Positions 19,045-29,021 of a stretch of 64,000 bases of DNA are shown here, in pieces. How positions within the stretch are numbered: the stretch's first letter is position 1; each line of letters opens with the position of its first letter. The notes under the pieces were generated by a model. That model saw nothing but the letters and a program-made list of their open reading frames with translations, was not told where the DNA came from and searched no databases. This DNA comes from Candidatus Poribacteria bacterium (GTDB lineage Bacteria; Poribacteria; WGA-4E; WGA-3G), in NCBI GenBank assembly GCA_022827625.1, contig JAJEIE010000027.1:174827-238826 (forward strand), given 5' to 3'. The translations under genes and the position numbers were made by a program.

Positions 19045-19974
19045 CTATTTTTCTAAGTAAGCGATGAACGCATCCAATTCTGATGAGACGTTGTCGAATA
19101 CCGCGCGGACCCGTTTTGCGTTTTCTACCGTTTCTTTGAGGGACAGTTCAAAATGATAGACATGCTCAAACCTGTAGCGGAATTTTAAAAACGGTACCAG
19201 ATCTATAACACTTTTCTGAGAAATCAGAGGCGGACGCAATGGTCTCGCTTCTGCTATTTGTGCTAATAGATCTTTATGTGTGCCTCGCCCCCTCATGACA
19301 TCCATATCAATTTGTCGTGCGATACGCCGGAAAATGCTTTCCAACCGAGCATAGAAACGAAAAAGGTATAAGTCAAGTGTGGTTTTGCAAGCATCCTTGT
19401 ATTTGGTAGGTGCTGTGTCCATTTTTAGCAAAGTTTGTGTGATTTTTCTGACGATCTGTTCTATATCTGCGAGATTTGCGGTGATATGTTGACGGAATTT
19501 CCGCTTATGTGCTTCAGCGGTTAATTTGCTTCTCATCACAAAGTCAGACCGCCAGTGAAAATTCGCTTCCCCATTTTGAATGGGAATGGCTTGCCCCTGA
19601 ATCTGTTCGCGAAATCGTCCTTTCGCGCTATGAAAGTTGATGAGATCAATTTTGAACTCTCGGCTAAAGCCAACAGTTTCCCCTATGGCGCGAAAATACT
19701 TCTCGGATGGGATACCCCAGACAGCAATATCAATATCTGACCCTTTGGAGAACCAATCCCGCCCTGCGAGCGACCCGAACACAGCGACCTGCGTTGCGTC
19801 AAAATCTTCGTAAAGCATGACAGCAACTTGATATGCTGTTTTCCAAGCGCGTCGTAGCAGTGCTTCATCCACTTTCCGATTCTGGAAGTGCTGATCAAGT
19901 CGGCAGCGGTATTCCGCTAATTCTTCAGGCGATAAATCTTTTGCTGTGCGCTGAGTTTCTGAGGATTGAGGCAT
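19045..19974 (-). CDS. Fused minimal nucleotidyltransferase (MNT) + HEPN domain protein (single-chain HepT/MntA-like)
   Basis: N-terminal 'VAVFGSLAGRDWFSKGSDIDIAVW' is the GS...DxD nucleotidyltransferase motif. C-terminal 'FRYRFEHVY' resembles the HEPN Rx4HxY motif. Confidence 0.65.
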   Translation of the reverse strand: MPQSSETQRTAKDLSPEELAEYRCRLDQHFQNRKVDEALLRRAWKTAYQVAVMLYEDFDATQVAVFGSLAGRDWFSKGSDIDIAVWGIPSEKYFRAIGETVGFSREFKIDLINFHSAKGRFREQIQGQAIPIQNGEANFHWRSDFVMRSKLTAEAHKRKFRQHITANLADIEQIVRKITQTLLKMDTAPTKYKDACKTTLDLYLFRFYARLESIFRRIARQIDMDVMRGRGTHKDLLAQIAEARPLRPPLISQKSVIDLVPFLKFRYRFEHVYHFELSLKETVENAKRVRAVFDNVSSELDAFIAYLEK

Positions 19975-20129: not shown

Positions 20130-21980
20130 TCAAAATCGCTTACCGGAGTCTACCACAGTAGAGAGATATAATGTTATTTGTTGTTTCTCAACATTAATAT
20201 CGGAGATGATTGTCTCAATTTCATCACCTTCCATCAGAGACTCTGGCGGAGACATCCGAATAAGACCGTTAATGCCCGGTTCAATCTCAACAAAAACACC
20301 GAAAGTGGTTACGTTTATGATGGGACCTGTAATCTTCGTGCCAACTGGATACTTTTGTTCCAGAAGTTTCCATGGATTTTGCTGCAAATATTTGTAACCT
20401 AACGAGATACGTTTGTCACTTTTTGAAACTTCAAGCACTACGGCGTTGATTTCATCATCTTGATTGAAGTTTGATGGAATTATGCCGTTTGGTTGCCACG
20501 ATAGCTCCGACTTATGAATCATTCCTGTAATACCTTCTTCAAGGTTAAGAAATACTCCATAATCTGTGATGCTGGTAACAATACCTGACACTACTGAACC
20601 AATTGGATATTTATCTTCAACATCACTGTCTTCCCACGGATTGGGCTTTAGCCTCAAATCAATACGCGTTTTCCCTTTTTCTGTTTCTTGATCTATATTG
20701 ATAATTTTGACTCTAACCTCGTCACCAATCGAAACTATATCCTCCGGCCTATTTATGAGTTTCCATGTCAATTCAGGGATACGGATTAATCCCTCAACCC
20801 CACCAAGATCTACAAATGCTCCAAAACGAGCGGTGCTTTTCACTTTTCCATTTACCCATTGTCCAACTTTAAGCCTGCTAAAAGCCTCTGATAGTTCTTG
20901 TGTAGGTTCGAATTTGGGTTGTTTATCGGACGTATCAGCAGTTTTTCTCTCGTCACTAGGTTCCGGAAAAGATCCTACCACTATGTTAGACATATCAGCG
21001 AGTTGTTCCTCGGCAATGATCTTCTCAGTTTCTATTATCGCTAACCGTTTTTCGCTTGCCACTAGTTGTTCCTCGAGCATGGTTACCTTTGTCTGTGCTG
21101 TCTCTAATTCATTTGACATCACCTCAAGGCGTTCCTCTCTGTTATCATAGGAAAGTTCATCGAGAATAGTTTTAACTTCATGTTTTTCATCTGACGCGTT
21201 GATTTTGTCGAGTACGTCAGATATATGAAATAACAGCTTTAGAGTAGTGTCACGTTTTGTGTCTTTTGTCCCTGGATGTGCCCAGTGAATTCTACCATCT
21301 TTTATCACTTCTGCTTCATTCCAGATTGCTTTTCTATTGTTAAATTTCTTAGAAAAGAAAGCGTTAGATTCCCAATATTTTCTGATAAAAGCTGGGAAAT
21401 TTTGAATATCTATTGCAGCTTCAATTTCGTTGTGGATCTCACGGGCAAGCTTTAGATCGTCAGGTGCCACTTCTTTAATTAAATCCTCTAGGGATCTGTT
21501 GTGATTCTTCTCCAGCGATTCAATGATGAATCTGCGCATAGCATCACGGTATATAGTGTATGCCTTATAAATTGCATCTCGGTTAGGATATTTTGTAGTA
21601 ATCATATTTAAAACCTCCATGTAGGCAAAGTTTTTATTGAAATGTTCTCTATTGAGTTTGGGTTTTCTGAGAATGGTTGATTGATCATTGACTATATTTT
21701 CGTTATTCATAATTTCCTCCGTTGCTAAGCTAAGAAGTATCTCAAGTGTTGTATGCAAAGCATCCGCGATGCTTTGCATCTGAAATATATCAGGAATCGC
21801 ATCACCTTTTTCAAACATAGCGATCCGCTGTTGCGTCACGCCAATTTCTTTCCCAAGTTCTGCTTGTGTCATACGCAACTGACGCCGCCGCTTTTTAATG
21901 TTCGATGCGACGTCCTCTATTTTTTTTTCGCTGACAATTTCTTTTGTTCTTGGCATTTGATTCCTTATTAATGTCCACAA
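20130..21980 (-). CDS. XRE-family HTH + helical (possible HEPN-like, 'RIHWAH') + coiled-coil + three S1 RNA-binding domains; unusual architecture
   Basis: N-terminal 'LRMTQAELGKEIGVTQQRIAMFEKG' is an HTH. Three S1-like units follow: 'GQWVNGKVKSTARFGAFVDLGG', 'GSVVSGIVTSITDYGVFLNL' and 'GTKITGPIINVTTFGVFVEI'. The gene is AT-rich relative to the flanking genes. Confidence 0.6.
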   Translation of the reverse strand: MWTLIRNQMPRTKEIVSEKKIEDVASNIKKRRRQLRMTQAELGKEIGVTQQRIAMFEKGDAIPDIFQMQSIADALHTTLEILLSLATEEIMNNENIVNDQSTILRKPKLNREHFNKNFAYMEVLNMITTKYPNRDAIYKAYTIYRDAMRRFIIESLEKNHNRSLEDLIKEVAPDDLKLAREIHNEIEAAIDIQNFPAFIRKYWESNAFFSKKFNNRKAIWNEAEVIKDGRIHWAHPGTKDTKRDTTLKLLFHISDVLDKINASDEKHEVKTILDELSYDNREERLEVMSNELETAQTKVTMLEEQLVASEKRLAIIETEKIIAEEQLADMSNIVVGSFPEPSDERKTADTSDKQPKFEPTQELSEAFSRLKVGQWVNGKVKSTARFGAFVDLGGVEGLIRIPELTWKLINRPEDIVSIGDEVRVKIINIDQETEKGKTRIDLRLKPNPWEDSDVEDKYPIGSVVSGIVTSITDYGVFLNLEEGITGMIHKSELSWQPNGIIPSNFNQDDEINAVVLEVSKSDKRISLGYKYLQQNPWKLLEQKYPVGTKITGPIINVTTFGVFVEIEPGINGLIRMSPPESLMEGDEIETIISDINVEKQQITLYLSTVVDSGKRF

Positions 21981-22288: not shown

Positions 22289-22591
22289 TCATAGGGTAGA
22301 TAGCAACACTTTTTCAACCGCAATAGGCAGTTGGAGAGGATAAAAACGGCTAACTGTATATGCGTAATCTTTGCCGCTTTCATCTATAACGCGAATATAG
22401 CCGTGGGTCGTTGCTTCATCATCAGGAACGACACGATACACTTTCCCAACCTCAAGAGAGGCTGGATGTCCTTTGTTGTTAAGGCACAGGCCAAATTGAG
22501 GGAATTGGTTGTTTTTTGTGTCCATCTTTATGCTACTGCCGCGACTGATTGTTTCGATCTGCTTGATTTCTCCGATAATTTCAAAATCCAC
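22289..22591 (-). CDS. Small hypothetical protein (possibly SH3-like beta)
   Basis: A 100-aa ORF with the motif 'KVYRVVPDDEATTHGYIRVIDESGKDYAYTVSRF'. No family is assigned. Confidence 0.4.
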   Translation of the reverse strand: MDFEIIGEIKQIETISRGSSIKMDTKNNQFPQFGLCLNNKGHPASLEVGKVYRVVPDDEATTHGYIRVIDESGKDYAYTVSRFYPLQLPIAVEKVLLSTL

Positions 22592-23191: not shown

Positions 23192-23428
23192 ATGAAAGCA
23201 TTTGAATGTGAATATTGCAGTGGCGAGATTCGCCAAAAGAAAGTTACCGTCGATCATTGGTATGAAGGCAAGTTGGTAATTATTAAAGATGTTCCCGTAG
23301 GGGTCTGCCAAGAGTGCGGTCAGCGATATTATGCAGCTGCAACACTGGATAGACTTGATATAATGGCACAGAATAGTGATGCTGCGCCGGAAAGAATGTC
23401 CGCCCCTGTCATGGTGATGGGGCCGTAA
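23192..23428 (+). CDS. YgiT/MqsA-type zinc-ribbon protein (antitoxin-like N-domain only)
   Basis: Has 'CEYCSGE...' and 'VCQECGQRYY', a CxxC...CxxC spacing characteristic of the YgiT-type zinc finger. Confidence 0.55.
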   Translation: MKAFECEYCSGEIRQKKVTVDHWYEGKLVIIKDVPVGVCQECGQRYYAAATLDRLDIMAQNSDAAPERMSAPVMVMGP

Positions 23429-23456: not shown

Positions 23457-25388
23457 TTAGGGCCAGAAGTTATACATCGGTTGCTGTGTCACAACACTGA
23501 TAAGGCTCCAGACACCACCTACCGTAAAATCACCTAACATCAAACCGATCGCAAACATCACCAACTGCTGCGAGGCACGGGGTCCTCCAATCTTCAGGAC
23601 GCTCCACTTGATAATCGAACTCACCAACATACAGCTCCACAGATACCGCATACCCCAATCGCTGGAGACAACGAACCCAATCGGATGGAACGGCCACCAG
23701 AAGAAACGCGCCCGCATAAACATCAAGAGGGTCGAAAAGAGCAAGCCAAACACAATGCCGCCAGTGGCATAGAAATTCGGCTCTGTCGGGTAATAGAGCC
23801 AGCCTTGGAGTCCGTTAAAGACACGTCCACCGAACCCTGTTGACCAACCGCTGCCCCCGCTCATATTCAACGCGCCATAAGTATAGAAGATATAAGCGAT
23901 AACCGCGAATACCATCACGGCGGCAAATGCTGAAACGCCTAATAGTGCGAAGAACAGTCGCCTCGGTGCGATGCCGGAACGTTCCGAGAGTTTGAAACCT
24001 TCTAACTGATGTGGCATCGGGTTGCTTGTGTAACTCCGATTGAACCACCGGTAGAGCGTCAAGGCAACGAGGTTGTTCGTCCCTAACATCCGTGTCCCGA
24101 AACCGTCAACGAGGATGTGATGGTTCGGCATATTTTCCATTGCATGCACTGGAAACCCTTGTTCCGCACGCATCCGTGTCAGCACCAAAACAATGATGAA
24201 ATAGATTGTGAAGAACAGCGGAATTAGCCAAAATGACATGCCGAGCCGTCTCGAAAAAATAAAGAGTATTGCCAATCCGCCGATGATGCCCCACAGCGCG
24301 TATCTATATGGAATCGGTTCGTCAGCGTCTTCGCCTGTGCCGCGACGCGCGATGCGGAGCACCCCACGAAAATGGCGTAGGTTCAGTACTAATACAGAGA
24401 TGAAAATCCCGATCGCCGCACCGAAGCACTGTCGATTGATGTATGGAAAACCGGGTAGGCTCGACAGGCCGACCGCACTCGTCATTACCAACTGCGCTTT
24501 GTAGAAGAAAAAGAAGAACCAACTGGAGAACGAAAGGTCTAACGGCATCAGGAGTCCAAGTCCGATGACGAATGGGTAATAGGACATACTGATACCCCCA
24601 ATAGCGTTCCACGGCTTTTCTGTGAACAGATGCCCGAACCCGCGCCAACCCCCGATCCGCTTGATGGGTAAGGTGGGAAGTGTCGGATACAAGAAACTGA
24701 GGCCATTGAGGATGGCTATAGACGCTGCAATTCCGAAACCGAGCCAGGTGATGCGGTGTGAGAACAGTGATTTTGTGTTATGCGTAACGTGAAAGGCGAT
24801 CTGCGTGATTGGATAGGCGAGGCGTTCGCGTTCGACCCACTGTTTCCGTAGAATGACGTTAATACACAACATCACGAGGACCAGAACCGTCATGAATCCC
24901 GCCCAGGAGAGCGTTGGCACTAACCATGCACCGAGAATCTCCATCGTGGAGAGGTTAGATTCACCTCTATAGTACCCCACCAAGACCTTCGGATCGTCTA
25001 CGAGGAGCCATCTCGGAAGATGGTCCCAGAACAGCTGCTTCCATTCATTTTCGGGAGTTGCGAACCAGAAAGCGTGCCCGACAGTTGTGACGAGGATCGT
25101 CATCAGCGTGATGGACGGGAAAGCGCACGCTGTGCTAAGTAAGATGTATATCGTGAGGAGTTCGGCGTCGGTGAATAAACGCCGACGAGCGGTGAAATTG
25201 AGGAGGGTAAAGGCAAATACGACGAAAACGACGTTGTAGAAGGGGACCGCGTACGTGTTCAGCGCGTAACCCACGAGTCCGACTTCGCCCGCGATGATCC
25301 AATAGAAATTAAACGGAATCAGCACGAGTGTAATGGCGATAGATTTCCATGTGACACCGTGTGATTTTGGGCGTTTATCTTCTCTCAT
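23457..25388 (-). CDS. Large polytopic integral membrane protein of unknown function (at least 12 predicted TM segments)
   Basis: Hydrophobic segments run throughout the 643 aa. Its start overlaps the stop of the upstream MNT-HEPN gene by 14 nt, indicating an operon. Confidence 0.6.
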   Translation of the reverse strand: MREDKRPKSHGVTWKSIAITLVLIPFNFYWIIAGEVGLVGYALNTYAVPFYNVVFVVFAFTLLNFTARRRLFTDAELLTIYILLSTACAFPSITLMTILVTTVGHAFWFATPENEWKQLFWDHLPRWLLVDDPKVLVGYYRGESNLSTMEILGAWLVPTLSWAGFMTVLVLVMLCINVILRKQWVERERLAYPITQIAFHVTHNTKSLFSHRITWLGFGIAASIAILNGLSFLYPTLPTLPIKRIGGWRGFGHLFTEKPWNAIGGISMSYYPFVIGLGLLMPLDLSFSSWFFFFFYKAQLVMTSAVGLSSLPGFPYINRQCFGAAIGIFISVLVLNLRHFRGVLRIARRGTGEDADEPIPYRYALWGIIGGLAILFIFSRRLGMSFWLIPLFFTIYFIIVLVLTRMRAEQGFPVHAMENMPNHHILVDGFGTRMLGTNNLVALTLYRWFNRSYTSNPMPHQLEGFKLSERSGIAPRRLFFALLGVSAFAAVMVFAVIAYIFYTYGALNMSGGSGWSTGFGGRVFNGLQGWLYYPTEPNFYATGGIVFGLLFSTLLMFMRARFFWWPFHPIGFVVSSDWGMRYLWSCMLVSSIIKWSVLKIGGPRASQQLVMFAIGLMLGDFTVGGVWSLISVVTQQPMYNFWP

Positions 25389-26319
25389 CTGACTCGTGGG
25401 TTTCGGCTAAAAAAGCGATAAACGTGTCTAATTCTTCAGAAACCGCTGTGAATAGTTCCGTGATTGACTTCGCATGTTCTTTGGCTTTTTCGTAAATCAA
25501 TTCAGTGCCATAGATGTTGTTAACCTTATGACGGAACCTGAGAAGTTGCCTTAATCTCTGCTGGGTCCCTTCGGAAATGACAGGTGGACGTTCTGGGCGA
25601 CCGTCTGTCATTTGTGCCAGCAAATCGGTATGCCACCGCTCACCCTGAGGCAAGTATTTATCAATTTCATTAGCAATCCGCTCGAAGATTCTTTCTATGC
25701 CGCTGTAGACCTCAGCGAGTTTTTTGGCAGTTAACTCTTCAAAAAATTTTCTGTGGTGAGGCGTGGCTACTTCAATTTCTTGCAAGAGTTCCATGATGCT
25801 TCCAATAGTCCGGTCTATTTTTGTACGTTCATCAGCGATACGTTGAATAAGTTCGTCACGATTCACTGTGTAAGCTTCTCCGTTTTCTATACCCGATGCG
25901 TTCACTAATGTGAGAATGTCCGTCCTCGCTTTATCAATAAGGATAGCTTGGCTTAGAATCCGCTCACGGAATAAACTGTTAATGGATTTAAAATTGATAA
26001 TATCTATCTTAAACTCAGAACTCAAGCCTTTTGTCTCCCAGAGCGCGTCCAGGCATTTGTTATATGAGACCCCCCAAACAACGATATCAATGTCTGAGTT
26101 TTGGGTGAACCGTTTCGGTTCAGTGAGGGATCCGAAGACGGCAACTTTCGTGGCGCCAAAGTCTCGATAAAGTACAGTGGCGAGACGACGCGCCGTCTTC
26201 CATGCGCGTTGGAGCAGCTCTTTATCGACCTGACGGTTTTCCCATTGGCGTTTGAGGTTTTCTCTGCATTTCGCGAGTTCTGATGGAGACATTCCACTCG
26301 TCGTGGTTTCGCGACGCAT
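25375..26319 (-). CDS. Fused nucleotidyltransferase + HEPN protein, a paralog of 19045-19974
   Basis: Has 'VAVFGSLTEPKRFTQNSDIDIVVW' and a C-terminal 'LRQLLRFRHKVNNIY'. The N-terminal 'LLQRAWKTA' is alignable with the paralog's 'LLRRAWKTA'. Confidence 0.65.
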   Translation of the reverse strand: MRRETTTSGMSPSELAKCRENLKRQWENRQVDKELLQRAWKTARRLATVLYRDFGATKVAVFGSLTEPKRFTQNSDIDIVVWGVSYNKCLDALWETKGLSSEFKIDIINFKSINSLFRERILSQAILIDKARTDILTLVNASGIENGEAYTVNRDELIQRIADERTKIDRTIGSIMELLQEIEVATPHHRKFFEELTAKKLAEVYSGIERIFERIANEIDKYLPQGERWHTDLLAQMTDGRPERPPVISEGTQQRLRQLLRFRHKVNNIYGTELIYEKAKEHAKSITELFTAVSEELDTFIAFLAETHESDERR

Positions 26320-26393
26320 ATTTAAGCCTCCGTGTTTCCTGACGTGATTCCGGTGCTGCTGAAACCGCGCCTACAGTTATCCAGAATTGATTG

Positions 26394-27380
26394 TTACGGC
26401 TGAATGGAGCCAGCATAGAGGTCGTTCAAAGCATCTTCGGGAAGCGGTTCAGGGCTGTTCTTGGCGAACTCAAGTGCTGCGTCGAGTTCATTTGAAAGCT
26501 CTGCCTCAAGTGCTGAGAGTTCCTCTTGGCTAACGCCTTCTTCTTCGGTGAGAACTTGAGCGAGTCGCCGGATCGGATCGCGTTTCCGTTCCTGTTCCTG
26601 AACCTCTTCGCGGTCACGGTAAGAGGTCCCTGGATCACCGATATGATGTCCTCGGAATCTATAGGTATCACAATTGAGAAGCGTGGGGCCGCCGCCGTCG
26701 CGGGCGCGCGTAACGGCTTCACCTGCTGCCGCATACACCTTAAGCACATCGTTTCCATCGACAGTGGCACCAGGCATATCATAAGCAGGGGCGCGGACGG
26801 CAGCGATATCTTCTACGCGTTGATGTTCCCGTTGGGGTGTTCCCATACCGAATCGGTTATTTTCACAAACGAAGATAGCAGGGAGTTCCCATACAGCGGC
26901 GAGATTGAGCGTCTCGTGGAAGACCCCTTGGTTCGTCGCACCGTCACCGAAGAAGGATACCGCGACTTGCTGCGTGCCGCGCAGTTTTGCAGAGAGAGCC
27001 GCACCCGCCGCCAGCGGAATACCAGCACCAACAACGCCGTTAGCACCGAGGATACCTGTTTCCTTATCGGCGATATGCATGGAGCCACCCTTGCCTTTAC
27101 AGTAGCCGGTCGTGCGAGCGAATAACTCTGCCATCATCCGATCCCGTTTACCACCCTTCGCGATGAGATGACCGTGTCCGCGATGGGTACTCGTGATGTA
27201 ATCGTCATCTTGCAAGTGGGCACAGACACCAACTGCCGTGGCTTCTTCACCGATATAGAGGTGGAGAAAGCCCGGAAGTTGACCGCTCTGATAAAGCGTT
27301 CCAGCGGCTTCTTCAAATTGACGGATTTCTATCATCTTGCGATACATAAAGAGCATCTGGTCTTTACTCGGTTTTGACAT
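26394..27380 (-). CDS. TPP-dependent 2-oxoacid (pyruvate/acetoin) dehydrogenase E1 alpha subunit
   Basis: Has 'GEEATAVG', 'TSTHRGHGH', 'GGSMH' and a TPP-binding motif 'GDGATNQG'. No E1-beta gene is adjacent. Confidence 0.8.
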   Translation of the reverse strand: MSKPSKDQMLFMYRKMIEIRQFEEAAGTLYQSGQLPGFLHLYIGEEATAVGVCAHLQDDDYITSTHRGHGHLIAKGGKRDRMMAELFARTTGYCKGKGGSMHIADKETGILGANGVVGAGIPLAAGAALSAKLRGTQQVAVSFFGDGATNQGVFHETLNLAAVWELPAIFVCENNRFGMGTPQREHQRVEDIAAVRAPAYDMPGATVDGNDVLKVYAAAGEAVTRARDGGGPTLLNCDTYRFRGHHIGDPGTSYRDREEVQEQERKRDPIRRLAQVLTEEEGVSQEELSALEAELSNELDAALEFAKNSPEPLPEDALNDLYAGSIQP

Positions 27381-27457: not shown

Positions 27458-28153
27458 CTAAAATAAAGAGAGATCATTAGCCTCAAGCGGGGCAATACAT
27501 CCTGGTGAATCATTCGTGGGACGATTGACGAATCTCGATACTGGATACGCCTCCATTTCCTCACCGGGGTAAGGAATAAGGAGGGGTTGAAGGACATCTA
27601 CTGACTGCTCATCTGGCGAGAGCCACTGGGCATAAGCGTCAGCTGGTAGGATGACAGGCATCCTGTGATGAATTTCCTCCAAGAAAGCGTTCGGTGGACA
27701 TGTAATAATCGTACAAGATTTCAGAGGTTCATCCATATCCTTCGCCTGCCATACCTCCCATAATCCTGCTACCGCGAAAGGTTTTTGCGATTTGAGACGG
27801 ATGTACACGGGCTGTTTGGCTCTCTCGCCGGGAATCTTTTGCCATTCATAATAGCCGTCCGCTAAGACGAGACACCTTCTACGTTTATAGGCGTTGCGAA
27901 AAGACGGTTTCTCCACAAGCGTCTCCGAACGGGCATTAATCATCCGATTTCCGATCTTCGGGTCTTTCGCCCAAGATGGAATGAGGCCCCAATGAAAAAA
28001 TTCTGCCTGCTTCTCACGGGTGTTGGGGACAGCCGCTATATCCTGTGTCGGTGAAATGTTGTAGCGAGGCGACAAATTCATCGGCACTTCAAAGTCGAAG
28101 AAAACTTGCTGTAGGGTTTCAGCGTCGCTTGCCAGCGTAAATCGTCCACACAT
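27458..28153 (-). CDS. SOS response-associated peptidase (SRAP/YedK, abasic-site processing protein)
   Basis: Starts 'MCGRF' (catalytic Cys2) at 28153 and contains 'HWGLIPSWAKD'. The annotated ORF start was trimmed from 28252. Confidence 0.8.
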   Translation of the reverse strand: MCGRFTLASDAETLQQVFFDFEVPMNLSPRYNISPTQDIAAVPNTREKQAEFFHWGLIPSWAKDPKIGNRMINARSETLVEKPSFRNAYKRRRCLVLADGYYEWQKIPGERAKQPVYIRLKSQKPFAVAGLWEVWQAKDMDEPLKSCTIITCPPNAFLEEIHHRMPVILPADAYAQWLSPDEQSVDVLQPLLIPYPGEEMEAYPVSRFVNRPTNDSPGCIAPLEANDLSLF

Positions 28154-28181
28154 TTTTTTCTCCTGAAGTGGTTGTGTGCGT

Positions 28182-29021
28182 CTATGTCCGCTTTTTCGGT
28201 TGAGGCACAAGAACGTCATCTCGCCACCGGAGCCGGAAAGACGGGCGGACAAGTGCCTCCGGCGATTGGAGTGTTAGGCCACCGTCTGCAGTCAACACGA
28301 TGCCGGTAACGAAATCCGCCTCATCGGAAGCCAAGAAGAGCGCAGCGTTGGCAATATCTTCAGGTTTCCCGTAGCGACCGATTGGATAGCAATCCCGAGA
28401 GGCTTGTTCTTCCAGGTCGTCCTCAGCAAGAGAGGCTCTACCGCGTTCCCCAACGATCTGTCCGGGGGCAATAGCGTTCGCACGGATACCGTCCCTACCA
28501 TAATCGAGGGCAATGCTCCGAGTCAAGGCGTTCAAGCCGCCTTTTCCTGCACCATAGAGTCCAAACCCCGGATTTGTAATCGTAGCGTTAACGGTAGAGA
28601 TAAATACCAAAGCACCCCCGCCGTTACGGATCATTTCTGGGATACAATACTTCGCACCGAGCCATGGACCCCCAAGGGTTACACCAAGGCTTTCATTCCA
28701 TTCTTCGCGTGTGAATTCAATGGCTTTTTTCGTGTAGGAGTGTGCCGCATTGTGGACAAGCGTTGTTATTTTACCGTAGTTTGACAAAGCCGTTCCAACG
28801 AGTTTCTGCCAAGTCGTCTCATCGGCGACGTCGCCCATAACAGAAACTGCCTCGCCACCAGCATCCTGAATGTGTTGGACGGTTTCAGCGAGTTTTTCTT
28901 CTCGGCGGCGCGTGTTGACAACCACTTTCGCACCTTCACAGGCAAATCTGTAAGCAGTCGCCGCGCCAATACCACCCCAAGCAGCACCGGCGACAATAGC
29001 AACTTTTCCTTCCAATCTCAT
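28182..29021 (-). CDS. SDR-family oxidoreductase
   Basis: Has 'GKVAIVAGAAWGGIG', 'NAA', an 'YGAGKGG' (YxxxK) motif and 'IRANAIAPG'. Confidence 0.8.
   Translation of the reverse strand: MRLEGKVAIVAGAAWGGIGAATAYRFACEGAKVVVNTRRREEKLAETVQHIQDAGGEAVSVMGDVADETTWQKLVGTALSNYGKITTLVHNAAHSYTKKAIEFTREEWNESLGVTLGGPWLGAKYCIPEMIRNGGGALVFISTVNATITNPGFGLYGAGKGGLNALTRSIALDYGRDGIRANAIAPGQIVGERGRASLAEDDLEEQASRDCYPIGRYGKPEDIANAALFLASDEADFVTGIVLTADGGLTLQSPEALVRPSFRLRWRDDVLVPQPKKRT

What the first reader, a model, noticed from the sequence alone, without database searches (positions are those of the whole stretch)
23457..26319. Operon coupling a fused NTase-HEPN protein to a 643-aa polytopic membrane protein
The stop of the MNT-HEPN gene (25375) and the start of the membrane protein gene (25388) overlap by 14 nt on the same strand. 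This implies translational coupling of a putative toxin/nucleotidyltransferase module with a large membrane protein of no recognisable family. NTase-HEPN modules are normally self-contained or paired with small soluble partners.
Basis: inference. Interest (0 to 1): 0.5.

Follow-up and report, generated by a model that had tools for sequence, protein, structure and literature searches.

The report
NTase-HEPN cassette wedged before a transporter
The overlapping gene pair is real, but the "unknown" membrane protein is a Yellow-Stripe/OPT-fold transporter, and the NTase-HEPN gene upstream of it is a fast-evolving, separately exchanged and dispensable cassette found at this one locus of a sponge-symbiont (Poribacteria) lineage, so it is not a dedicated two-gene system.

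Summary
Observation confirmed. ORF 25375-26319(-) is a 314-aa fused MntA-like NTase + HepT-like HEPN protein (NTH1). ORF 23457-25388(-) is a 643-aa membrane protein. They overlap by 14 nt.

Interpretation mostly not supported.
- The pairing exists only at one orthologous locus of one Poribacteria clade (17 of 20 distinct loci).
- It was lost twice while the transporter stayed under strong purifying selection.
- It is absent from all 69 loci that carry a more distant DUF6785 relative.
- NTH-family genes abut or overlap whatever lies downstream of them: VWA_CoxE, SDR, another NTH, an Opp binding-protein gene.
- NTH1 has its own history. Its synonymous divergence is discordant with both flanks, and its dN/dS is 0.12-0.28 against about 0.03 for the flanks.
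- NTH1 keeps the NTase motif and the AMPylation-site Tyr but lacks the canonical HEPN His (RHKVNNIY), so it is probably not a classical RNase toxin.

Best reading: a TA-derived cassette lodged in a host operon. Interest is modest.

The parts
25375..26319 (-). NTH1: 314-aa single-chain MntA-like minimal nucleotidyltransferase + HepT-like HEPN protein
   Evidence: ORF. Pfam Polbeta (residues 50-128) and HepT-like_2 (residues 198-303, E 1.8e-28). In the AF2 model the N-domain matches MNT antitoxins (8xeo TMt 0.74) and the C-domain matches HEPN toxins (7ae6_B TMt 0.77).
26086..26133 (-). NTase catalytic motif G63-S64-x11-D76-I77-D78
   Evidence: Invariant in alignments A2 and A3. GSx9-14DxD is present in 238 of 239 family members.
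25510..25536 (-). HEPN motif region F262-R-H-K-V-N-N-I-Y270. The Arg and the Tyr are kept, but the canonical catalytic His (R+5) is Asn.
   Evidence: Alignments. Census: 0 of 120 NTH1-type homologs have His at R+5, and FRHKVNNIY occurs in 103 of 120.
25375..25388 (-). 14-nt overlap of the NTH1 stop (TAA, 25375-25377) with the DUF6785 start (ATG, 25386-25388)
   Evidence: The same overlap occurs in 9 of 14 orthologous loci.
23457..25388 (-). 643-aa DUF6785+DUF6784 polytopic membrane protein with the OPT/Yellow-Stripe transporter fold
26320..26393 (-). 74-nt spacer between E1 alpha and NTH1. It marks the upstream edge of the independently recombining NTH1 block.
   Evidence: Sliding-window identity changes regime at about the NTH1 start and about the DUF6785 start. 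No terminator-like site on this strand.
26394..27380 (-). Backbone gene: TPP-dependent dehydrogenase E1 alpha subunit, directly upstream
   Evidence: Pfam E1_dh E 1.7e-95. Syntenic in all orthologous loci.
27458..29021 (-). Backbone genes SRAP (27458-28252 as listed; the probable true start is the MCGRF Met near 28153) and SDR (28182-29021). These are the start of the same-strand gene string.
   Evidence: Pfam. Synteny.
19045..19974 (-). NTH2: second NTase-HEPN paralog of the same family (38% identity to NTH1). It keeps a canonical RYRFEH motif and lies in the variable island downstream of DUF6785.

Best explanation
The pair consists of two functionally independent genes that share a transcript because of where one of them landed.

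The downstream gene encodes a secondary transporter with the OPT/Yellow-Stripe fold (DUF6785+DUF6784). It belongs to a large paralogous family that Poribacteria use next to many different catabolic gene sets. It is a conserved 'backbone' gene (dN/dS about 0.03).

[quoted passage not shown] It belongs to a family that is multiplied in Poribacteria and occupies several intergenic slots of this same region: before SDR, before DUF6785 and before VWA_CoxE, and also within tandem runs of NTH genes. In each slot it has the same orientation as the host genes and is packed tightly against whatever follows.

In the ancestor of this clade an NTH copy came to lie in the E1alpha|DUF6785 interval, which is only about 80-90 nt in the loci that now lack it. 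Since then NTH1 has been kept in most lineages, exchanged between lineages as a gene-sized block, and lost twice.

The 14-nt stop/start overlap comes from a short C-terminal tail of NTH1 (…THESDERR) running into the transporter's start. It most likely lets the transporter be translated by reinitiation from the shared mRNA (inferred, not shown).

NTH1 probably still self-AMPylates, because its NTase motif and target Tyr are intact (inferred from HepT/MntA and FhepTA). It lacks the canonical HEPN His, so it is probably not a classical RNase toxin.
For: Shown:
1. Domain and fold identities.
2. NTH1 is present at 17 of 20 distinct orthologous loci. It is absent in L005, L099(=L100) and L014, where DUF6785 is intact. 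The NTH-less loci are nested inside the NTH+ clade, which implies two losses.
3. No NTH-like ORF occurs within 8 kb in any of the 69 loci with a more distant DUF6785 relative, by tblastn and by a profile search at E<=1. The neighbours of those relatives are diverse, and none occurs in more than 19 of 81 loci.
4. Downstream neighbours of the 42 NTH-family genes listed (including the near-identical pairs L086/L087 and L099/L100): DUF6785 15, VWA_CoxE 9 (typically an 8-nt overlap), another NTH 8, SDR 3, u194 2, other 2 (including an Opp SBP gene), and an opposite-strand gene 3.
5. Mean pairwise protein identity is 67% for NTH1 against 91-94% for E1a, DUF6785 and SDR. dN/dS is 0.12-0.28 against 0.02-0.08.
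6. Synonymous divergence is discordant. For L083-L084, NTH1 dS is 0.13 and the flanks are about 1.0. For WIN-L013, NTH1 dS is 1.56 and the flanks are 0.33-0.56. In a sliding window the block edges coincide with the NTH1 gene.
7. Motif census.

From the literature: a fused MNT-HEPN protein (FhepTA) is non-toxic as a whole and auto-oligoAMPylates the Tyr next to RxxxxH (PMC13000451). HvYS1 is a proton-coupled OPT-family transporter with an otherwise unique fold (PMC9691689).
Against: The adjacency is retained in most genomes of the clade. NTH1 identity also correlates with DUF6785 identity overall (Spearman 0.81), so much of its history is vertical and some selective benefit of the arrangement cannot be excluded.

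Two of the other NTH slots are also next to uptake-transporter genes: the Opp ABC operon in L092 and L095. That could hint at a real link to transport.

No transposase, integrase or repeat that would explain how NTH copies move was found next to the cassette, and the family has no relatives on viral contigs.

Co-transcription and translational coupling were not measured. In the NTH-less loci a terminator-like hairpin lies only 26 nt before the transporter's ATG, so how the transporter is expressed there is unexplained.
Confidence: 0.7

Rival explanations
1. This is a true functional two-gene module. NTH1 acts on or with the transporter. It might adenylylate (and so inactivate or trap) a compound that the OPT-like protein imports, as ANT/Lnu-type NTase+helical-domain enzymes do with antibiotics. 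Alternatively it might AMPylate the transporter to gate uptake according to ATP level.
For: The stop/start overlap is conserved in most orthologous loci. The pair is retained in 17 of 20 distinct loci. The HEPN His is lost while the motif stays strongly conserved (FRHKVNNIY in 103 of 120), so the C-domain does something other than canonical RNA cleavage. The best full-length Foldseek hit is the spectinomycin adenylyltransferase AAD(9), although with a poor TM-score of 0.18-0.22. Other NTH paralogs sit inside Opp-type ABC uptake operons.
Against: None of the 69 loci with more distant DUF6785 relatives has an NTH. The transporter persists under unchanged constraint after two NTH1 losses. NTH genes abut non-transport genes just as tightly. 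NTH1 alleles are swapped independently of the transporter gene. The family occurs in tandem arrays of 2-3 copies, which is typical of conflict genes rather than metabolic partners.
Confidence: 0.13
2. This is a defence or abortive-infection pair. The NTase-HEPN protein is the sensor or toxin and the large membrane protein is a membrane-disrupting effector.
For: HEPN and NTase domains are common in defence systems. The region downstream is a variable island containing another NTH, an HTH-HEPN-S1 protein and a YgiT zinc-finger gene. In relatives the island holds HNH, DUF4258, Uma2 and IS elements. There are weak PADLOC PDC-S09 hits on the NTase domain.
Confidence: 0.04
3. The two genes are expressed independently. 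The transporter has its own promoter inside the 3' part of NTH1, and the overlap has no consequence for expression.
For: A sigma-70-like match lies inside NTH1 on the minus strand (26025-25997). Orthologs with 6-nt or 27-nt gaps work without an overlap. In NTH-less loci the transporter follows a terminator-like hairpin, so it must be expressible on its own.
Against: Promoter-like matches are not enriched over shuffles (7 found against 4.3 expected), and Poribacteria promoter rules are unknown. No terminator-like site separates NTH1 from DUF6785. Tight packing is a family-wide trait of NTH genes.
Confidence: 0.13

Closest known systems
[quoted passage not shown] 2026, PMC13000451)
   Same: It has a single polypeptide with an N-terminal MntA-like NTase (GSx11DxD) and a C-terminal HepT-like HEPN domain. 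The Arg and the Tyr of the R-x4-H-x-Y motif region are conserved. It is a stand-alone gene with no separate antitoxin (paper read).
   Different: The canonical catalytic His is Asn in all NTH1-type members examined (0 of 120). The two domains are joined by about 20 disordered residues followed by long helices (residues 132-195), not by a 3-5-residue linker. The gene is chromosomal at a fixed slot in Poribacteria, not prophage-borne, and has no relatives on viral contigs. It belongs to a family expanded to several copies per locus. No sequence-level match reaches the NCBIfam MntA cut-off (26 bits against 60).
Two-gene HepT/MntA (HEPN/MNT) type VII TA modules (e.g. S. oneidensis SO_3165/3166, PDB 5yep/6m6u; A. 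flos-aquae, PDB 7ae2-7ae9)
   Same: Both domain folds match these structures: MNT TMt 0.55-0.75 and HEPN TMt 0.62-0.77.
   Different: Here the two domains are fused, the RNase motif is non-canonical, and toxicity and neutralisation are untested.
OPT / Yellow Stripe-like transporters (TC 2.A.67; barley HvYS1, PDB 7wsr/7wst; PMC9691689)
   Different: Sequence identity is only 11-14%. There is no hit to Pfam OPT even at E<=10, and no PDB hit by profile. The protein is bacterial and Poribacteria-expanded. Its substrate and coupling ion are unknown.
Pfam DUF6785 (PF20581) + DUF6784 (PF20580)
   Same: Full-length matches far above the gathering thresholds.
   Different: The family carries no functional annotation in Pfam or NCBIfam, and no paper in the searchable library mentions it.

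Membership tests
Type VII TA, fused form (FhepTA-like MNT-HEPN) | N-terminal minimal nucleotidyltransferase with GSx(10-20)DxD | tested here: met
   G63-S64-x11-D76-I-D78 is invariant. The motif is present in 238 of 239 homologs. The fold matches MNT antitoxins.
Type VII TA, fused form (FhepTA-like MNT-HEPN) | C-terminal HEPN (HepT) fold | tested here: met
   Pfam HepT-like_2 E 1.8e-28. Foldseek 7ae6_B TMt 0.77, 5yep_C TMt 0.70.
Type VII TA, fused form (FhepTA-like MNT-HEPN) | Canonical RNase motif R-x4-6-H | tested here: not met
   NTH1 has R263-H-K-V-N-N268, with Asn at the His position. 0 of 120 NTH1-type homologs have His there. The window paralog NTH2 (19045-19974) does have RYRFEH.
Type VII TA, fused form (FhepTA-like MNT-HEPN) | Tyr two residues after the His position (the oligoAMPylation site) | tested here: met
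   Y270 is invariant in A2 and A3. That this Tyr is the modification site is taken from PMC13000451 and is not tested here.
Type VII TA, fused form (FhepTA-like MNT-HEPN) | Toxic HEPN domain neutralised by (self-)AMPylation | not testable with these tools
   This needs expression, toxicity and mass-spectrometry assays.
Type VII TA, fused form (FhepTA-like MNT-HEPN) | Carried on prophages or mobile islands | tested here: inconclusive
   No relatives on viral contigs and no flanking integrase. However, the gene behaves as an independently exchanged block and lies beside a variable island containing IS elements in relatives.
OPT / Yellow Stripe-like transporter superfamily | YS1-type fold (core + scaffold domains with inverted repeats) | tested here: met
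OPT / Yellow Stripe-like transporter superfamily | Sequence membership (Pfam OPT profile) | tested here: not met
   Only DUF6785 and DUF6784 are reported at E<=10. A profile search against PDB sequences finds nothing.
OPT / Yellow Stripe-like transporter superfamily | Proton-coupled uptake of peptides or metal chelates | not testable with these tools
   This needs transport assays.
Pfam DUF6785/DUF6784 | Score above the gathering threshold for both models | tested here: met
   499.5 bits (cut-off 25) and 113 bits (cut-off 26.4).
   None of the 69 loci with more distant DUF6785 relatives has an NTH-like ORF. NTH copies occur without DUF6785 (L091-L096). Three distinct orthologous loci lack NTH1.
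Known anti-phage defence systems (PADLOC) | Match to a system-specific profile for both genes | tested here: not met
   There are only weak domain-level PDC-S09 hits on the NTase part (E 1e-8) and nothing for DUF6785.

The most novel reading that the evidence does not exclude
The Poribacteria NTH family may not be a toxin-antitoxin relic. It could be a set of RNase-dead, self- or substrate-adenylylating proteins that are deliberately co-translated with uptake systems: the OPT-fold DUF6785 here, and Opp-type ABC operons in L092 and L095. For example, they could neutralise imported toxic compounds or tune uptake to ATP level. The rapidly exchanged alleles would then reflect an arms race over what is imported inside the sponge.
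Probability: 0.08. Interest if true: 0.65.

Novelty: new variant of a known kind. Interest (0 to 1): 0.3.

Why it matters
As a 'toxin coupled to a membrane protein' system, it does not hold up, so it should not be pursued as a new effector module.

Three by-products are useful:
1. DUF6785/DUF6784 is a family of more than 7000 clusters at 50% identity with no annotation. It can now be read as an OPT/Yellow-Stripe-fold transporter family, and so far only one structure of that fold has been solved. This gives a handle on nutrient uptake in uncultivated sponge symbionts.
2. Poribacteria carry an expanded family of single-chain MNT-HEPN proteins. Most of them have lost the HEPN catalytic His but keep the NTase site and the AMPylation Tyr. 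This is a natural test case for what fused type VII modules become.
3. The locus is a clean example of a gene-sized cassette with its own recombination history inside an otherwise vertically inherited operon. It is a caution against reading stop/start overlap as proof of functional coupling.

Tried and rejected
- Sequence searches for a solved relative of the membrane protein (profile against PDB sequences, E<=10) found nothing.
- Pfam at E<=10 gave no OPT or other transporter family.
- NCBIfam gave nothing for the membrane protein.
- A literature search for 'DUF6785' found no papers. 'Poribacteria'+'HEPN' found nothing relevant.
- Foldseek against afdb50 was unavailable.
- I looked for a universally conserved neighbour of DUF6785 and found none; the best neighbour cluster is in 19 of 81 loci.
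- A viral-contig scan for NTH relatives found none.
- PADLOC gave no system-level assignment.
- Promoter and terminator scans in the window were not different from shuffles.
I rejected them because the only structural neighbour is HvYS1.
- I considered a KNTase/ANT-type antibiotic nucleotidyltransferase identity for NTH1. Full-length superposition is poor (TM 0.18-0.24), whereas the separate domains match MntA and HepT well.
Full report
**1. What is in the sequence**

On the minus strand there is a same-orientation string of genes:
- SDR (28182-29021)
- SRAP (27458-28252 as listed; its real start is probably the MCGRF Met near 28153)
- a TPP-dependent dehydrogenase E1 alpha subunit (26394-27380)
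- the 314-aa ORF 25375-26319
- the 643-aa ORF 23457-25388

The last two share 14 nt (25375-25388). Read from the sequence, the NTH1 tail ...E-S-D-E-R-R-stop overlaps the ATG AGA GAA GAT AAA start of the membrane gene. The ATG is the first start codon after the upstream in-frame stop. It is also the start used in homologs, including those with no upstream NTase-HEPN gene. Homolog names and locus titles place the window in Candidatus Poribacteria, which are sponge symbionts.

**2. The upstream gene (NTH1)**

Pfam finds a Polbeta-type minimal nucleotidyltransferase (residues 50-128) and a HepT-like_2 HEPN domain (residues 198-303, E 1.8e-28). An AlphaFold model (pLDDT 76.6, with residues 132-151 disordered) has two domains. 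The N-domain superposes on MNT antitoxins (8xeo TMt 0.74; 1no5; 6m6u_A). The C-domain superposes on HEPN toxins (7ae6_B TMt 0.77; 5yep_C; 1ylm).

The NTase motif G63-S-x11-D76-I-D78 is invariant and is present in 238 of 239 family members.

The HEPN motif region reads F-R263-H-K-V-N-N268-I-Y270. The Arg and the Tyr are conserved, but the canonical catalytic His of R-x4-H is Asn. None of the 120 closest homologs has His there, and FRHKVNNIY occurs in 103 of 120. Among 119 homologs of the window's second paralog, only 16 have His. That second paralog, NTH2 (19045-19974, 38% identical), does keep RYRFEH.

Fused MNT-HEPN proteins are a described kind. FhepTA of Shewanella is non-toxic as a whole, auto-oligoAMPylates the Tyr next to its RxxxxH motif, and has a 3-5-residue linker (PMC13000451). 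NTH1 shares the architecture and the Tyr. It differs in the missing His, in the long linker, and in not being prophage-borne; there are no relatives on viral contigs.

**3. The downstream gene**

It is not family-less. It matches Pfam DUF6785 (E 1.2e-149, residues 13-505) plus DUF6784 (E 8.5e-33, residues 544-643). Sequence methods give nothing further, and no paper in the searchable library mentions the family.

An AlphaFold model built from a 12-sequence alignment (pLDDT 77, pTM 0.82) has one and only one significant structural neighbour in the PDB. This is the barley Yellow Stripe 1 iron-phytosiderophore transporter:
- Foldseek: E 5e-9, TM 0.67/0.71

The family is large. A profile search finds 7136 clusters at 50% identity at E<=1e-3 and 2473 at E<=1e-30. 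It is multi-copy in Poribacteria genomes, and copies are often in tandem.

**4. Is the pairing conserved?**

I collected 80 genome loci with DUF6785 relatives, six further loci via NTH1 homologs, and 19 metagenome loci via the NTH family.

(a) Among loci orthologous to the window (DUF6785 at 85% identity or more), the backbone is SDR-SRAP-E1alpha-[NTH1]-DUF6785-[variable island]-VWA_CoxE-ADH. NTH1 is present in 17 of 20 distinct loci. It is absent in L005 and L099/L100, where only 79-88 nt separate E1alpha from DUF6785 and the spacer contains a terminator-like hairpin. It is also absent in L014, where 4.2 kb of other DNA occupies the slot. On a DUF6785 tree the NTH-less loci are nested within NTH-bearing ones, so they represent two losses.

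(b) None of the 69 loci that carry a more distant DUF6785 relative (65% identity or less) has any NTH-like ORF within 8 kb, by tblastn or by a family profile at E<=1. Their neighbours are diverse: Gfo/Idh/MocA oxidoreductases, PhyH dioxygenases, sulfatases, SDRs, enolase-superfamily enzymes and LamG proteins. No neighbour cluster is present in more than 19 of 81 loci.

(c) NTH-family genes occur without DUF6785 (L091-L096). Wherever they sit, they are packed against the next gene. Among the 42 NTH-family genes listed, the downstream neighbours are:

| Downstream neighbour | Count | Note |
|---|---|---|
| DUF6785 | 15 | |
| VWA_CoxE | 9 | typically an 8-nt overlap |
| another NTH | 8 | |
| SDR | 3 | |
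| u194 | 2 | |
| other | 2 | in L092 a family-5 solute-binding protein gene following OppD/OppF |
| gene on the opposite strand | 3 | |

. These counts include the near-identical pairs L086/L087 and L099/L100.

Tight stop/start spacing is thus a property of the NTH family, not of this pair.

**5. Separate histories**

Mean pairwise protein identity among orthologous loci is 92.5% for E1alpha, 90.7% for DUF6785 and 93.7% for SDR, but 66.9% for NTH1. dN/dS is 0.02-0.08 for the backbone genes and 0.12-0.28 for NTH1. NTH1 is therefore a functional gene under weaker constraint.

Synonymous divergence is discordant in both directions:
- L083 vs L084: NTH1 dS 0.13, flanks about 1.0
- L004 vs L083: NTH1 dS 0.13, flanks 0.5-0.7
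- WIN vs L013: NTH1 dS 1.56, flanks 0.33-0.56

A 150-nt sliding window shows that the change of regime coincides with the NTH1 gene. For example, L083-L084 goes from 80-89% in the flanks to 95-99% within NTH1, and WIN-L013 goes from 88-95% to 55-79%. So NTH1 alleles are exchanged between lineages as a gene-sized block, independently of the transporter gene.

The overall correlation of NTH1 and DUF6785 identities (rho 0.81) shows that much of the history is nevertheless vertical.

**6. Most likely explanation**

A type-VII-TA-derived, single-chain NTase-HEPN gene of a Poribacteria-expanded family came to lie in the short E1alpha|DUF6785 spacer in the ancestor of this clade. It is expressed from the host operon. 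The transporter downstream is probably translated by reinitiation across the 14-nt overlap (inferred).

The two proteins do unrelated things. One is an OPT-fold transporter serving the symbiont's nutrient uptake. The other is a conflict-type or exapted self-modifying NTase whose HEPN domain is no longer a canonical RNase. I put this at about 0.7.

The main rivals are:
- a real functional link to uptake, about 0.13; it is kept alive by the retained adjacency and by NTH copies in Opp operons
- independent expression from an internal promoter, about 0.13; this concerns expression only and can hold together with either functional reading, so these figures are not meant to sum to one
- a defence sensor-effector pair, about 0.04; the transporter fold and housekeeping-like evolution of the membrane protein argue against it

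**7. Comparison, novelty and verdict**

NTH1 works like, and descends from, HepT/MntA and FhepTA. However, it fails the defining R-x4-6-H test, so I file it as a variant and not a member. The membrane protein is a member of Pfam DUF6785/DUF6784. It has the OPT/YSL fold but no detectable sequence membership in Pfam OPT.

It has some instructive features, and it is not a new system. Interest is 0.3, mostly for the fold assignment of a large DUF family and for the His-less fused MNT-HEPN expansion.

**8. Limits**

- Both models rest on shallow alignments (12 and 20 sequences).
- dS values above 1 are saturated; the contrasts at low dS are the robust ones.
- ORF calls in the loci are mechanical, so some start codons, and therefore some gap sizes, are approximate.
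- L086/L087 and L099/L100 are near-identical and are not independent.
- No expression or biochemical data were available.

Noticed in passing
window 19045-19974 (-): A second NTase-HEPN paralog (NTH2, 309 aa, 38% identical to NTH1). Unlike NTH1 it keeps a canonical HEPN RYRFEH motif. It lies in the variable island between DUF6785 and VWA_CoxE. Relatives carry 0-3 such copies there, often in tandem.
   Followed up: partly
window 20130-21980 (-): A 616-aa protein with an unusual architecture: an N-terminal HTH_3, a weak Swt1-like HEPN match (E 7e-5, below the cut-off) and three S1 RNA-binding domains. Its PADLOC hits cover only the HTH part (RmrA, CapH).
   Followed up: no
window 23192-23428 (+): An orphan 78-aa YgiT/MqsA-type zinc-finger protein (TIGR03831, E 1.8e-11). 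It converges on the stop of the DUF6785 gene, and no recognisable toxin partner lies next to it.
   Followed up: partly
window 26394-27380 (-): The E1 alpha subunit of a TPP-dependent 2-oxoacid/acetoin dehydrogenase has no adjacent beta-subunit gene, either here or in any orthologous locus. It is followed by NTH1, or by a hairpin and then DUF6785.
   Followed up: no
L085 and L088 (both from ENA contig ctg717623l, 6.35 Mb; positions about 322 kb and 1.53 Mb): The whole PhyH…SDR-SRAP-E1a-NTH1-DUF6785 segment occurs twice on one contig. The flanks are 94-96% identical but NTH1 is only 77% identical. This is either a segmental duplication or a chimeric long-read assembly of two strains.
   Followed up: no
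L092 4009-7911 and L095 2817-6766: NTH paralogs (48% identical to NTH1) are wedged immediately after the OppD/OppF-type ABC ATPase genes. In L092 the NTH start overlaps the OppF stop by 4 nt. In L092 the NTH gene precedes a family-5 solute-binding protein gene, and in L095 it precedes an SDR gene.
   Followed up: partly
L005 7954-7974; L099/L100 2342-2362; also L079 6183-6203 and L082 618-638: The same 9-bp-stem hairpin GGCGAGGTTnnnAACCTCGCC followed by a T-run sits 26 nt upstream of the DUF6785 ATG in the NTH-less loci. It recurs at two loci that carry more distant DUF6785 relatives. It could be a terminator or a small repeated element. It is absent from the window even with 3 mismatches allowed.
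   Followed up: partly
L040, L042, L045, L052, L056 (three copies), L057, L067, L080: Tandem arrays of DUF6785 paralogs that are about 40% identical to each other. The family has 7136 clusters at 50% identity in the global protein set.
   Followed up: partly
window 22289-22591 (-): A small ORF (about 80 aa from the conserved part) with no family match. It is conserved at 69-77% identity downstream of DUF6785 in at least 8 related loci (L004, L005, L007, L013, L090, L099, L101 and others).
   Followed up: no
NTH1 residues about 132-200 (window 25720-25925, -): The linker and first HEPN helices are the most variable part of NTH1 (block identity 0.20-0.51, against 0.7-0.88 elsewhere). Homologs such as P0170, P0189 and P0240 combine one allele type in the N-terminal half with another in this segment, which suggests mosaic recombination within the gene.
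   Followed up: partly
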